DNA of 51,955 nt, taken from the IMG/VR virus record IMGVR_UViG_3300031825_000016, positions 1 to 51,955 of that record; one strand, written 5' to 3'. The notes beneath the pieces were generated by a model. It searched no databases. It was not told where the DNA came from and saw only the letters and a program-made list of their open reading frames with translations. Below, one piece after another: positions 9,847 through 36,919 of the stretch. Position 1 is the first letter of the stretch. Every line of letters starts with the position of its first letter. This DNA comes from a virus. Lineage: Duplodnaviria > Caudoviricetes. The position numbers and the translations under genes were made by a program.

Positions 9847-9958
9847 CGGTTTATTTGGCCCGGTTACCTGGGGGACTGTCATGCGGTTCCAAGCTGAGAA
9901 TGGCCTTGCCTCTGATGGGGTTGTGGGTCCAAATACGTGGGCGAGGTTGCTAGGCTAA
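9791..9958 (+). CDS. Peptidoglycan-binding domain in +1 frame of the holin tail (55 aa, absent from ORF track)
   Basis: VQHLLGLKDDGLFGPVTWGTVMRFQAENGLASDGVVGPNTWARLLG; no evident RBS. Confidence 0.7.
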   Translation: MGMGQIRQGVQHLLGLKDDGLFGPVTWGTVMRFQAENGLASDGVVGPNTWARLLG

Positions 9959-9980
9959 ATTCCCAAGCGCTTGGGAATTT
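9957..9980. repeat. 24-bp perfect palindrome, copy 1
   Basis: AAATTCCCAAGCGCTTGGGAATTT. Confidence 0.95.
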
Positions 9981-10000
9981 GAAGGAAGGAGTGGAGATCC

Positions 10001-10592
10001 TTGAAAACCAGATTCATAAAAGCGAGTTGGCACTCAAATCCGCATACAACGATATTGGGGCGAAGGATGCCAAGGCTACAGCGGCAATCACGAAGCTGAG
10101 AACGTATTCCGTTTTCCGACTATGATTGACATGAAAGATGCCAGTGCCAAGATGGACGAGCTTTACAAAGACCCAGAGAGTTGGCCGACTCACTGTAAGT
10201 ATTGCGGGGCTCCGGTAGCGGAAGATGATGCTAGAACATCCGCGGGTACTCTCCCAATCTTCGATAACGGTTGCGACCAGCTAGAGCCGGGGGATATGTA
10301 TTTTGCCCAAATGCACGAACCAGACGAGCCATGTTACTTCGCTGGCTGGGAGAATTGTGACGGTAAGCATCTTCACGTAGTTCTGCCTAACGGCGATCGC
10401 TGGGATGTCGATAGCAGGGCAAGTAACTGCACTATGCCAGAGGATAAGACCCACCGTTGCTGGGTTAGACACGGTGAGCCGCCAAATGTCCATGTAGACA
10501 AAAACGGAAACACTTGTCAGGCCGGTGCAGGATCCATTCTGTCGGGAGATTACCACGGATTCCTACACAATGGCGAATTAACGAGCTGTTAA
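10001..10592 (+). CDS. Cys/His-rich uncharacterised protein; 5' end apparently +1 frameshifted near 10019
   Basis: RBS then TTG 10001 (MKTRFIK); +1 frame is open from 10020 (KRVGTQIRIQRYWGEGC...) into ORF 10122-10592. Confidence 0.6.
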
Positions 10593-10606
10593 AGGAGTGT
10601 TTATTT

Positions 10607-11029
10607 ATGCCACAAGACTTTTTTACTTTAGGATCCCTGGCCACGTTCGCCGGGTTGGTGCTGGCGGTGTACCTTATCGTGCTGTTTAGCAAGTCCTTCC
10701 TTAAATACCTGGTGAGTCTGGTTAGTAAGACAATCTTAGACGGGGATCTCGGGGATTTCGTGATCCAGCTCTACGCCGCTGTAGTGGCCCTGCTGATAAT
10801 GCTGCTTGTTGTGCAGGTGCAGGGCGTAGGGTTGGCTTTAATTAACGCCGTGCTGGTGGCTTTGGCTGCTACAGGGCTGCACGAGACTATTAAACGACCT
10901 ATTGTAGCAGGGCAGAAGGCAAGTCTAGTAGACAGTGCTGCTGAGATTGCTACATCTAACGCATCTACCGTACCGACCTCCACAGAGACCGCTTCGCCGC
11001 CCGCGACTCCAGCGCAGACAAATCAATAG
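10607..11029 (+). CDS. Second holin-like multi-TM protein
   Basis: AAAGGAGTG RBS; MPQDFFTLGSLATFAG start; about three TM segments. Confidence 0.65.
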   Translation: MPQDFFTLGSLATFAGLVLAVYLIVLFSKSFLKYLVSLVSKTILDGDLGDFVIQLYAAVVALLIMLLVVQVQGVGLALINAVLVALAATGLHETIKRPIVAGQKASLVDSAAEIATSNASTVPTSTETASPPATPAQTNQ

Positions 11030-11047
11030 GCAACTGTATTAACCATG

Positions 11048-35600: not shown

Positions 35601-35892
35601 AATCTGCAATTCTGCACTGTGCAAAACGGTTGCAGAAAACATGTTTTTTACAATTCTGCACTCTGTAAACCTTCCTATATATGGATGGTTGCAGAAAACG
35701 TATTTTAAGTATTTTGCATGTTGCAGAAAACATGATTTAAGTTTTCTGCAACCGAGTGCAGATTTGGTTGCAGAAAACACTATCCTATAATTCCTTATTT
35801 CTGCAGCACTCACGCACGGGGTCACGGATGGGGTTACGTTGTCGTGCGTTTACGTGGCGCACGACGACAACCTCCCCTATCCATCCCGTGAC
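35587..35892. repeat. Putative replication origin: TGCAGAAAAC iterons plus nested hairpin
   Basis: Direct copies 35587, 35631, 35690, 35722, 35769; inverted 35741; imperfect stem-loop 35821-35892. Confidence 0.75.
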
Positions 35893-35943
35893 AAGGGCAA
35901 ACCTGCAAGAGACCGAAAAACAAAAAAACGGAGGTAGAAAATA

Positions 35944-36501
35944 ATGGAAGCTCAAAAAAGCATAATCGCGGTTGAAGAGTTTGGCGGCAAGTACAAGATA
36001 AACGAAAATTACCGACCGATAGCAGCTGCACTGATATCAAAATTTCCTGAACTCATGTATGTTCCAGTGGACAACATTCTCTTTATCGAAAACATGGAGG
36101 ACAAGCGTAAGAAAAATAACGGCATCGTGTATGCCCAGATAAGCAAGATGCCTGGCAAGTGGGAGGAGATTATCTATCAGATTACCAAAAAGCAATTTGA
36201 GTACATGCTGGAGATTTTCAAGGAGAACACCGAAGGAATGAGCAGGGCGCAAATTACAGCACTCATTTATCACGAGCTAAAGCATATCCAGCTGGTCAGA
36301 TCAGATCAAGGACCTAAAATCGATATAGTCCGGCATGATGTAGAGGACTGGTTCAACATGGTTGAAAAGCTGGGAACAAACTGGGCCAGCACGAAGGGAT
36401 CAATACCAAATCTCTTGGATGAAGATGTTAACTGGGAGAGCATCGAGGGCCCGGCAAACCTTTTCCCTGCTGAAACATCCCTTAAGCTGGTGAAGTCGTG
36501 A
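35944..36501 (+). CDS. Putative phage metallopeptidase
   Basis: YHELKH (HExxH) and RHDVED. Confidence 0.75.
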   Translation: MEAQKSIIAVEEFGGKYKINENYRPIAAALISKFPELMYVPVDNILFIENMEDKRKKNNGIVYAQISKMPGKWEEIIYQITKKQFEYMLEIFKENTEGMSRAQITALIYHELKHIQLVRSDQGPKIDIVRHDVEDWFNMVEKLGTNWASTKGSIPNLLDEDVNWESIEGPANLFPAETSLKLVKS

Positions 36502-36893
36502 AAACTGAATTCTTTATGGCTCTAGTGCCTCCAGAAACGACGCACCAGAATAAAGCAGTTCGAATTGTAAATGGCAAGCCTCTGTTCTATGAGCCGGCAG
36601 AACTTCAAGCAGCGCGATCTAAACTCCAGGCCCATCTGGCACAGCACATACCAGAGCAAAAGTATACAGGGGCTGTCAGGCTGGTAACCAAATGGTGCTT
36701 CCCGATTATTGGTAAGCATCAGGACGGTGAATATAAGACCACTAAGCCCGATACTGACAACATGGTCAAAATGCTAAAGGATGTCATGACGGACCTAGGA
36801 TATTGGACAGATGACGCAATTGTGGCCAGTGAGATTATTGAAAAGTTTTGGGCAAAGGTACCCGGGATCTATGTGGTCATTGAAGGTCTTTAG
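36498..36893 (+). CDS. rusA: RusA-family Holliday junction resolvase
   Basis: KPDTDNMVKMLKD...WTDD. Confidence 0.9.
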   Translation: MKTEFFMALVPPETTHQNKAVRIVNGKPLFYEPAELQAARSKLQAHLAQHIPEQKYTGAVRLVTKWCFPIIGKHQDGEYKTTKPDTDNMVKMLKDVMTDLGYWTDDAIVASEIIEKFWAKVPGIYVVIEGL

Positions 36894-36895
36894 TG

Positions 36896-36919
36896 AAAAT
36901 CCCAAGCGCTTGGGATTTT
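36896..36919. repeat. 24-bp perfect palindrome, copy 3
   Basis: AAAATCCCAAGCGCTTGGGATTTT. Confidence 0.95.

What the first reader, a model, noticed from the sequence alone, without database searches (positions are those of the whole stretch)
9957..36919. Three copies of a 24-bp palindrome, one encoding part of the DUF3102 HTH protein: candidate self-sited parS-like system
Seen: AAA[AT]TCCCAAGCGCTTGGGA[AT]TTT at 9957-9980, 25399-25422 and 36896-36919, each followed by GA. Copies 1 and 3 are perfect palindromes between a stop codon and the next RBS. Copy 2 is a hybrid of their arms and encodes KSQALGNL just after the predicted HTH of DUF3102. A shared 16-bp core three times in 52 kb is not expected by chance. 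Established: ParB/parS and KorB use dispersed palindromes bound by dimeric HTH proteins. Inference: DUF3102 (HTH plus long coiled coil) binds a site carried in its own gene and dispersed round the circle, for DNA organisation, segregation, protection or regulation, possibly with the neighbouring PcfK/PcfJ/SMC-like genes.
Basis: partly seen in the sequence, partly recalled or inferred. Interest (0 to 1): 0.85.

Follow-up and report, generated by a model that had tools for sequence, protein, structure and literature searches.

The report
Phage palindrome tied to DUF3102 protein
A soil phage carries three copies of one 26-base mirror-symmetric DNA site, one of them inside the gene of an uncharacterised DNA-binding-like protein (DUF3102) that is the best candidate to bind it, but the same site also occurs in phages that lack that protein.

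Summary
The 16-bp core TCCCAAGCGCTTGGGA occurs three times and nowhere else in this complete 52-kb phage record (0.01 expected). Each copy fits a 26-bp consensus, CAAAW-TCCCAAGCGCTTGGGA-WTTTG. The site is a widespread family: 74 viral and 70 genome stretches hold it, mostly in Bacillota prophages.

In 77 non-redundant DUF3102 genes, the codons under the site never vary synonymously (CAA 70/70, GCG 63/63, CTT 55/55, AAT 55/55). Every other conserved column uses 2-6 codons. So the in-gene site is selected as nucleic acid.

In contiguous host genomes, all copies lie inside the DUF3102 prophage. DUF3102 paralogues in one host carry different palindromes at the same codons, which argues against a host factor. 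The protein model weakly resembles ParB/KorB DNA-binding domains and is predicted to form a symmetric dimer.

My best reading, at about 0.5, is that DUF3102 dimers bind these sites. A partition (parS) role is not supported: there is no ParA and no ParB CTPase domain, and an integrase is present.

The main caveat is that 27 of 39 genomes with only extragenic sites have no intact DUF3102, as do 5 of 17 near-complete proviruses. No binding data exist. This scan has noted the DUF3102-palindrome link many times before (224 notes).

The parts
9956..9981 (.). Site copy 1 (26 bp; the 24-mer at 9957-9980 is a perfect palindrome). It overlaps the TAA stop of ORF 9791-9958 and lies directly 5' of an SD-like GAAGGAAGGAG. 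It sits after the lysis cassette, at the end of the late operon.
25398..25423 (.). Site copy 2 (matches the 26-bp consensus with 0 mismatches). It lies inside the DUF3102 gene and encodes KSQALGNL.
36895..36920 (.). Site copy 3 (perfect 24-mer palindrome). It lies between the RusA stop codon and the SD of a 36-aa Cys-rich ORF, at the boundary between early and late genes.
25118..26137 (+). DUF3102 gene (339 aa). The protein has an N-terminal long helix, a helix-turn-helix-like pair and a long coiled coil. It is the candidate binder of the site.
   Evidence: Pfam PF11300 E 3e-56, residues 14-142; PHROG 15609, unknown function; models; VIA-align top match Spo0J, Z 5.9; homodimer score 0.57 against 0.00 for the best control
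23534..25105 (+). PcfJ-like gene directly upstream of DUF3102. This pairing recurs in relatives. Its role is unknown and was not tested.
   Evidence: Pfam PF14284 E 1.7e-37; neighbours in L004, L018, L019, L028, L040, L062, L070, L074
36498..36893 (+). RusA resolvase gene, the last gene before copy 3 (context).
   Evidence: Pfam PF05866 E 5.6e-29
36937..37047 (+). 36-aa Cys-rich ORF whose SD follows copy 3 (context). It has no family match.
37181..37726 (+). Putative late transcription regulator downstream of copy 3 (context).
   Evidence: PHROG 36 E 9.2e-11, PHROG 248 E 2.6e-7; no Pfam match
9791..9958 (+). 55-aa ORF resembling the C-terminal part of endolysins. Its stop codon is part of copy 1 (context).
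   Evidence: PHROGs 2649 and 1493

Best explanation
The three palindromes are double-stranded DNA sites of one conserved 26-bp family. They are read by a symmetric dimer of the phage's own DUF3102 protein, which has a ParB/KorB-like helix-turn-helix domain, no CTPase domain and a long coiled coil. The copy inside the DUF3102 gene is the constant, ancestral member, because the site and its reader cannot be separated by recombination. The two extra copies are optional additions. They are slotted between a stop codon and the next ribosome-binding site at module boundaries: RusA|late regulator, and lysis cassette|accessory genes.

Shown here: the sites, their conservation, nucleotide-level selection on the in-gene copy, and their linkage to DUF3102.

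Inferred: the binding itself. Also inferred is its consequence. I take that to be local control at operon boundaries (a roadblock or insulator, plus self-limitation of the DUF3102 transcript), possibly with bridging of the sites through the coiled coil. I do not take it to be plasmid-type partition.
For: 1. Site family. Of 128 distinct sites, half-site positions out to 13 bp from the centre are conserved by identity (-2 A 92%, -4 A 84%, -5 C 55%). Arm complementarity falls to background (0.17-0.35) beyond position 5. Position -1 is A or T and is complementary in only 61% of sites. This fits a protein reading two half-sites better than a hairpin.

2. Selection on the in-gene copy. 80 DUF3102 loci were picked by peptide anchors outside the block, giving 77 non-redundant genes. 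Codons 97-99 and 101 are invariant: CAA 70/70, GCG 63/63, CTT 55/55, AAT 55/55. All other conserved columns use 2-6 codons. 73 of 75 ungapped blocks lie within 5 mismatches of the core. Symmetric variants exist (TCGC..GCGA, TTCC..GGAA, CTCC..GGAG).

3. Linkage to DUF3102. In a 6.4-Mb genome, 4 of 4 sites lie in one 46-kb stretch that starts in the DUF3102 gene. In a 6.0-Mb genome, 2 of 2 do. The contig is shared, within 2-40 kb, in G127 (two prophages), G101, G129, G120, G115, G110, G112 and G094.
   - PF11300 is present in 12 of 39 genomes whose exact hits are all extragenic, against 10 of 301 in a phylum sample.
   - It is present in 12 of 17 proviruses that are at least 90% complete and hold the core.

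4. Not one host factor. In one Dehalobacter genome, DUF3102 paralogues carry different perfect palindromes at the same codon block.

5. Shared spellings. Extragenic copies share their own genome's asymmetric spelling in G051, G058, G061, G038/G120 and G133.

6. Protein.
   - VIA-align top hit is Spo0J (Z 5.9, rmsd 3.0, 85 aligned). ParB-parS scores 5.3, KorB 5.0 and 4.9, P1 ParB 4.3, SopB 4.0 and VirB 4.0. All cover model residues 33-137.
   - The homodimer model scores 0.57 against a best control of 0.00 from 3 controls. That mark was reached by 20 of 30 proteins solved as pairs of one chain and by 1 of 23 solved as single chains. The runs agree in at least 50% of contacts, and the partner's pLDDT is at least 67. 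My own alignment was used, so these counts hold only roughly. The interface is the N-terminal helix 14-52, arranged antiparallel, plus the C-terminal helices.
   - The site encodes a low-confidence linker (pLDDT under 50 at residues 88-92/93), although the peptide is conserved.
Against: - No binding measurement exists for any DUF3102 protein. The literature search for 'DUF3102' found 3 papers, none on function by their listings.
- The fold evidence is weak. Foldseek gave no match at E <= 0.001. All Z scores are below 8, which the tool says can arise from a common helical arrangement. A RuBisCO chaperone (Raf1) scores as well as ParB.
- Orphan sites. 5 of 17 proviruses that are at least 90% complete hold the exact core but have no DUF3102, even with a family profile at E <= 1. 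One 4.9-Mb genome has 5 sites and no DUF3102. 27 of 39 genomes with only extragenic exact hits have none or only fragments.
- An orphan context and a DUF3102-positive context share only 72-77% flank identity while the site is identical. So the site appears to be maintained without a DUF3102 gene in cis.
- Most DUF3102 phages seem to have only the in-gene copy. At least 10 of 50 records show an extragenic copy with the canonical centre. This is a lower bound.
- Shared asymmetric spellings fit gene conversion between copies at least as well as selection by a symmetric dimer.
- Counts are not corrected for phylogeny. The IMG/VR and GTDB sets overlap.
Confidence: 0.5

Rival explanations
1. The site is read by some other sequence-specific factor: an unrecognised phage protein family, or a host protein. 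DUF3102 then merely carries one copy in its gene, for example as a target of regulation.
For: Exact orphan sites with the full consensus occur in proviruses and whole genomes without DUF3102. They appear conserved against 72-77% identical flanks. The central CAA-R-CG-Y-TTG recalls the core of LacI/PurR-type operators; this is recalled, not tested.
Against: - Host factor. In 6-Mb genomes the site occurs only inside prophages. Paralogues in one host use different palindromes.
- Phage factor. The window and three DUF3102-less site-bearing proviruses share only integrase, Xre-type HTHs, terminase and portal. PcfJ is absent from 5 of 5 of these proviruses and ParB_N from 4 of 5.
- The window has no LacI-family gene. 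The only hit is a sub-threshold HTH match at 15353-15457.
Confidence: 0.2
2. The palindromes act as RNA hairpins. They could be weak or bidirectional intrinsic terminators, processing or stability elements, or translational insulators at gene junctions. The in-gene copy would be an mRNA structure.
For: - Copies 1 and 3 sit where operons end.
- Of 67 distinct sites outside long open frames, 25 have an ORF ending within 45 nt upstream and an SD plus start within 90 nt downstream. In 14 of these the stop codon lies within 4 nt of the site. 7 sites are convergent junctions (crude ORF calls).
- The RNA folds into a 10-11-bp stem with a GCGC loop at -11 to -12 kcal/mol.
- A few sites are embedded in longer perfect palindromes (5 of 128 with 7 or more extra pairs).
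- This reading needs no DUF3102, so it fits the orphan sites.
Against: - The terminator scan does not call copies 1 or 3. They have only 3-4 U after the stem. Nearby it finds ordinary GC-rich, long-U terminators at 11047-11068 and 37839-37863.
- Fold z-scores on the sense strand are -0.24, -1.39 and -2.66.
- Sequence identity, not just pairing, is kept across unrelated phages. 39% of sites have a non-complementary base inside the would-be stem, and there is no pairing signal beyond the site.
- The asymmetric variants give C-C or C-A mismatches, not G-U wobbles.
- Host genes do not use this hairpin.
Confidence: 0.12
3. The palindrome is a recombination linker or a small selfish palindromic element. 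It spreads between phages at module junctions and was once captured in frame by DUF3102.
For: - The sites sit at module junctions with unrelated flanking genes: 36 singleton families among downstream genes, plus holin, sigma-like regulator, connector, tail and integrase groups.
- Copies within a genome share asymmetric spellings, as gene conversion would produce.
- Orphan sites often flank lysis cassettes that move between phages.
Against: - Complete synonymous invariance of the in-gene block over 77 diverged genes, with symmetric compensating variants, points to long-term purifying selection on a function rather than to a scar.
- Copy numbers are low: 1-4 per phage.
- No transposase-like partner was seen. 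No search was made for one.
Confidence: 0.08

Closest known systems
ParB-parS, including Bacillus Spo0J and Noc-NBS
   Same: A dimeric helix-turn-helix protein with 14-16-bp palindromic sites dispersed over a replicon. The DUF3102 domain model's best structural matches are Spo0J and ParB DNA-binding domains. From memory, not found in the library searches: the first B. subtilis parS was mapped inside the spo0J gene itself, the same self-sited arrangement.
   Different: There is no ParB_N CTPase domain and no ParA partner. The phage integrates (integrase), so it needs no partition. The site is longer (26 bp) and has a different sequence. There is a long coiled coil instead of the ParB C-terminal dimerisation domain. 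There is no sequence-level match to any solved ParB.
KorB and its OB operators on plasmid RK2 (PMC11790492, abstract read)
   Same: A ParB-superfamily DNA-binding domain that reads identical palindromes dispersed over a mobile replicon to control transcription of several operons. KorB DNA-binding domains appear among the structural matches (Z 5.0 and 4.9).
   Different: KorB is a CTP-dependent sliding clamp that works with KorA at promoters. DUF3102 lacks the CTPase domain. The window's extragenic sites lie between a stop codon and an SD, and the consensus promoter scan places none of its matches on them.
KfrA-type plasmid proteins (recalled, not tested)
   Same: An N-terminal DNA-binding domain followed by a long alpha-helical coiled coil. 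KfrA binds an inverted repeat linked to its own gene.
   Different: There is no Pfam KfrA_N match; only DUF3102 was reported for the protein at E <= 0.01. The KfrA operator is at its promoter, not inside the coding sequence.
Cis sites embedded in the gene of their binding protein: lambda O/ori-lambda, SPP1 G38P/oriL, pac sites inside terS (recalled)
   Same: The site lies inside the reading frame of the protein thought to read it, so the pair travels as one unit. DUF3102 sits in the replication and recombination module.
   Different: Those sites are arrays of iterons or asymmetric pac regions with AT-rich unwinding or cutting zones. Here there is a single palindrome, plus identical copies at late-gene junctions. 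No origin features were tested.
Stoperators of cluster A mycobacteriophages (recalled)
   Same: Many identical short sites dispersed within operons of a phage genome, thought to block transcription through bound protein.
   Different: Stoperators are asymmetric and oriented, number about 20-35 per genome, and are bound by the prophage repressor. Here the sites are symmetric, number 1-4 per genome, and the candidate binder is an early lytic-module protein.

Membership tests
Pfam DUF3102 (PF11300) | Match to the family profile above the gathering score | tested here: met
   189.6 bits against a cut-off of 24.4, E 3e-56, residues 14-142 covering profile positions 1-129 of 129
DUF3102-linked palindrome (pattern seen in this scan) | A palindrome at the codon block just after the helix-turn-helix, kept at the nucleotide level | tested here: met
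   73 of 75 ungapped blocks lie within 5 mismatches of the core, and 61 of 75 are at least 12/16 self-complementary. Codons 97-99 and 101 are synonymously invariant. Other spellings occur in the Dehalobacter paralogues.
ParABS partition system | ParB N-terminal CTPase (ParB_N) domain in the site-binding protein | tested here: not met
   No PF02195 match anywhere in the record at E <= 0.01. Only DUF3102 was reported for the protein.
ParABS partition system | ParA/Soj-type ATPase partner | tested here: not met
   No PF13614 (AAA_31) match in the record at E <= 0.01; the control rang in 14 of 14 reference genomes. PF01656 was not searched.
ParABS partition system | ParB-type helix-turn-helix DNA-binding domain fold | tested here: inconclusive
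   VIA-align: Spo0J Z 5.9 (rmsd 3.0, 85 aligned) and ParB-parS Z 5.3, but all Z are below 8 and Raf1 scores 5.8. Foldseek: E 0.65-0.99, probability 0.72-0.96. No sequence match to PDB.
ParABS partition system | Palindromic sites dispersed on the replicon and bound by the protein | not testable with these tools
   The sites are present and dispersed. Binding cannot be tested here.
KorB-OB global regulon | Operators placed at or near promoters of the regulated operons, with a CTP-dependent clamp | tested here: not met
   There is no CTPase domain. Copies 1 and 3 lie between a stop codon and an SD, and no consensus promoter overlaps them. The promoter scan is a consensus match only.
Intrinsic (Rho-independent) terminator | GC-rich stem-loop followed by a U-rich tract (at least 5 U in 8) | tested here: not met
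   Copies 1 and 3 are not called by the scan; they have 3-4 U after the stem. In another phage (L058) the same core, followed by TTCTTGTTTT, is called on the minus strand.
LacI/GalR-type operator | A LacI-family repressor encoded with, or acting on, the site | tested here: not met
   The only hit is a sub-threshold PF00356 match (17.8 bits, cut-off 27) on a 62-aa Xre-like ORF. The likeness of the central CAA-R-CG-Y-TTG to such operators is recalled, not tested.
KfrA family | KfrA_N DNA-binding domain | tested here: not met
   No such Pfam match at E <= 0.01. The architecture is similar only in outline.

The most novel reading that the evidence does not exclude
DUF3102 and its 26-bp palindrome form a portable phage 'boundary mark' system. 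A ParB-like DNA-binding dimer without a CTPase clamps identical sites at module junctions and inside its own gene. The exact orphan sites kept in DUF3102-less prophages are read in trans. On this reading, DUF3102 phages and resident prophages sense or silence each other's late and lysis genes through a shared DNA word conserved across Bacilli, Clostridia and Negativicutes.
Probability: 0.1. Interest if true: 0.8.

Novelty: new variant of a known kind. Interest (0 to 1): 0.55.

Why it matters
DUF3102 is a widespread phage and mobile-element family with no tested function. The library search for the name found 3 papers, none on function by their listings. A defined 26-bp site that is selected at the nucleotide level inside the gene gives an immediately testable hypothesis of what the protein binds. 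It also provides a second example class, beside ParB/KorB, of dispersed identical palindromes organising a mobile genome. The orphan sites raise a further question: whether phages share or exploit each other's DNA-binding factors. For annotation, the site is a useful marker of module boundaries in Bacillota prophages.

Tried and rejected
- RNA evidence: the look-up of sequencing runs on 35900-38000 listed 5 DNA holders in 3 studies and no RNA holder.
- Sequence search of the N-terminal domain profile against PDB: best E 0.68, nothing usable.
- Foldseek, on the full model and on the domain model: no match at E <= 0.001.
- A citable statement that a parS lies inside spo0J: not found in two searches and three papers read by passage. 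It is given as recalled.
- PcfK: no match among the ORFs scanned. Not all ORFs were scanned.
- A second candidate binder shared by DUF3102-less site-bearing proviruses: none found by blastp or phmmer, by PcfJ (0 of 5) or by ParB_N (1 of 5).
- Distant DUF3102 in orphan genomes: profiles A1 and A2 found nothing better than E 0.06.
- Degenerate extra copies in the window: none within 8 of 26 mismatches.
- Natural experiment in Dehalobacter genome G100 (14 PF11300 matches): the alternative palindromes occur only in the genes themselves or in a gene fragment, with no extragenic copies. So it could not test own-versus-foreign matching of extragenic sites.
- Rows dropped before the genome count. Of the 70 genome-contig loci, 11 were labelled non-Bacillota. 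These were five gammaproteobacterial loci at a cytochrome oxidase gene junction, two Alloprevotella, one Peribacteria, one Gillisia and two Acidobacteriota. A further 11 were extra loci from genomes already counted. That leaves 48 genomes. Locus L021 was not held.
- The in-gene/outside split uses crude stop-to-stop frames and overstates 'inside'.
- I did not run a phylogeny-corrected test of recognition-helix covariation.
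Full report
**Observation.** The core TCCCAAGCGCTTGGGA occurs exactly at 9961, 25403 and 36900. Nothing else matches with up to 2 mismatches. The expected count is 0.01, and 0 of 100 shuffles reached three. No other 26-mer in the window lies within 8 mismatches of the extended consensus.
- Copies 1 and 3 are perfect 24-bp palindromes.
- Copy 2 combines their arms.
- All three are followed by GA.
- Copy 1 overlaps a TAA stop and precedes an SD-like run.
- Copy 3 lies between the RusA stop and the SD of a 36-aa ORF.

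The window is a whole IMG/VR virus record, 100% complete by CheckV. Its last ORF runs in frame into its first, so the map is effectively circular (arithmetic).

**Setting.**
- Copy 2 lies in a 339-aa DUF3102 protein (PF11300, E 3e-56). It is flanked by a PcfJ-like gene, an SMC-like AAA_23 ATPase, an AAA_24 ATPase, a DHH phosphoesterase and a helicase. Further on come a PriCT_2/AAA_25 primase-helicase, a metallopeptidase and RusA.
- Copy 3 marks the end of this early block. Downstream are a putative late regulator (PHROG 36), an HNH protein and the terminase.
- Copy 1 follows the lysis cassette: holin 8119-8340, endolysin 8354-9124, and a peptidoglycan-binding-like ORF ending in the site. It precedes small unassigned genes and the leftward lysogeny block, which holds a tyrosine integrase and a CI-like repressor.
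- The record has no ParA-type ATPase and no ParB_N domain.

**A conserved site family.** The exact core occurs in 74 stretches of IMG/VR. A 20-mer version occurs in 70 stretches of the species-genome collection, where I estimate about 2 by chance. Most hosts are Bacillota: Paenibacillus, Brevibacillus, Lysinibacillus, Desulfitobacterium, Dehalobacter, Sporomusa and many Clostridia MAGs. Over 128 distinct sites, the half-site is conserved by identity out to 13 bp, giving C-A-A-A-W-TCCCAAGC. Beyond that, arm complementarity is at background. Position -1 is A or T and is complementary in only 61% of sites. This is the signature of a two-fold symmetric reader of sequence, not of a hairpin kept for pairing.

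**The in-gene copy is selected as nucleic acid.** I took 80 DUF3102 loci using peptide anchors that flank the block but do not include it, giving 77 non-redundant genes. Codons 97, 98, 99 and 101 are CAA 70/70, GCG 63/63, CTT 55/55 and AAT 55/55. Every other conserved column in the same genes uses 2-6 codons, with modal shares of 0.26-0.81. When the centre changes, it does so by amino-acid replacements that keep the CG (ACG, TCG; TTT, ATT). Arm changes come in symmetric pairs that couple a silent change to a replacement (TCG with GCG; TTC with GGA). The encoded peptide lies in a low-confidence linker of the models. This fits a peptide conserved because of its DNA.

**Linkage to DUF3102.**
- In a 6.4-Mb genome, all four sites lie within 46 kb starting in the DUF3102 gene. 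In a 6.0-Mb genome, both sites do.
- Where contigs allow a check, extragenic sites share the contig with DUF3102 at 2-40 kb. This holds for G127 twice, and for G101, G129, G120, G115, G110, G112 and G094.
- Among 39 genomes whose exact hits are all extragenic, 12 carry an intact DUF3102, against 10 of 301 in a phylum sample. That sample includes three of my site-bearing genomes.
- Several genomes share an asymmetric spelling between the in-gene and extragenic copies. This shows concerted evolution of the copies.
- In one Dehalobacter genome, paralogous DUF3102 genes carry different perfect palindromes at the same codons. A single host factor cannot explain that.

**The protein.**
- The N-terminal domain model (pLDDT 79.8) has no significant Foldseek match.
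- An all-against-representatives structural alignment puts Spo0J first (Z 5.9). It lists ParB-parS, KorB (twice), P1 ParB, SopB and VirB DNA-binding domains, all over residues 33-137. Scores this low can reflect a common helical arrangement, and Raf1 scores equally.
- A homodimer prediction passed its controls, scoring 0.57 against a best of 3 controls of 0.00. The mark was reached by 20 of 30 proteins solved as pairs of one chain and by 1 of 23 solved as single chains. The runs agree in at least 50% of contacts, and the partner's pLDDT is at least 67. My own alignment was used, so these counts hold only roughly. The two-fold interface is formed by the N-terminal helix next to the helix-turn-helix.

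**Rivals.**
- Terminator or hairpin. The scan does not call copies 1 or 3, which have only 3-4 U after the stem, and it finds ordinary terminators nearby. Hairpin energies are moderate. The junction geometry (stop, site, SD) is common, but it is also what compact phage genomes would give any inserted site.
- Host factor. This is disfavoured by the absence of sites outside prophages and by the paralogue spellings.
- Another phage factor. No candidate is shared among site-bearing phages.

**The main problem.** Exact sites with the full consensus occur without DUF3102:
- in 5 of 17 near-complete proviruses;
- in a 4.9-Mb Lysinibacillus genome with five sites;
- in 27 of 39 genomes with only extragenic hits.

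One such context differs by 23-28% from its DUF3102-positive counterparts in the flanks, yet not at all in the site. Either these sites work without DUF3102, or they are read in trans, or they were moved recently with lysis and late modules. I cannot tell which. The two collections overlap, so they are not independent.

**Mechanism I commit to (about 0.5).** DUF3102 dimers bind the 26-bp sites. The in-gene site is the core of the system, and the extra copies extend it to operon boundaries. There, bound protein most likely limits read-through or insulates modules. The coiled coil may bridge sites. Partition in the parS sense is unlikely here.

**Relation to earlier work.** This scan has 224 earlier notes linking DUF3102 to palindromes, in at least 188 genomes, so the link is not new to the scan. 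In print I found nothing on DUF3102 function. This window adds:
- the canonical, very widely distributed spelling of the site;
- the codon-level test;
- the dimer prediction;
- the size of the orphan-site problem.

Noticed in passing
window 50213-51955 and 1-270: The last ORF runs off the 3' end after exactly 581 codons, and the 5'-open frame 1-270 continues in frame 1. The record therefore reads as a closed circle or a circular permutation, although IMG/VR lists it as linear.
   Followed up: partly
window 14070-15197 (-), 22570-23010 (+), 23534-25105 (+): An FtsK/SpoIIIE-like ORF (weak match), a 3D-domain protein and PcfJ are gene types more usual on conjugative elements than in siphophage early regions.
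   Followed up: no
window 9517-9958: ORF 9791-9958 (55 aa) matches only the C-terminal cell-wall-binding part of endolysins. It lies 0.7 kb after the complete endolysin 8354-9124, so it may be a duplicated or detached binding module.
   Followed up: no
L058 3946-3961 (same in L050, L073): In one clade an exact core lies near the 3' end of the gene upstream of pcfJ, where it encodes ...KQESQALGKV.... This is a second coding context with the same SQALG peptide. There the terminator scan does call it on the minus strand.
   Followed up: partly
L016, L024, L047, L048 (about 12 kb downstream of DUF3102 in G011, G017, G039, G040): An exact core lies within a 426-aa open frame, 22 nt upstream of a possible internal SD and start of a 236-aa acidic, scaffold-like product. 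In this clade the in-gene DUF3102 copy has 3 mismatches.
   Followed up: no
G100 (Dehalobacter genome): One 2.9-Mb genome has 14 PF11300 matches (about 10 full length). At least three different perfect palindromes occupy the homologous codon block, and none has extragenic copies.
   Followed up: partly
L184, L187, L222, L235, L238: The same 20-mer sits at a conserved junction upstream of a cytochrome-oxidase-subunit-like membrane protein in marine gammaproteobacterial MAGs (flanks 93-96% identical). It is probably an unrelated hairpin.
   Followed up: no
L183, L191, L233, L189: A few sites are embedded in much longer perfect palindromes (34-42 bp). This would suit hairpin or cruciform formation. 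L183 lies in the Dehalobacter genome that has many DUF3102 copies.
   Followed up: no
all sites: The invariant centre CAA-R-CG-Y-TTG and the TCGC..GCGA variant resemble the cores of LacI/PurR-family operators. This is recalled from memory and was not tested beyond the absence of a LacI-family gene in the window.
   Followed up: partly
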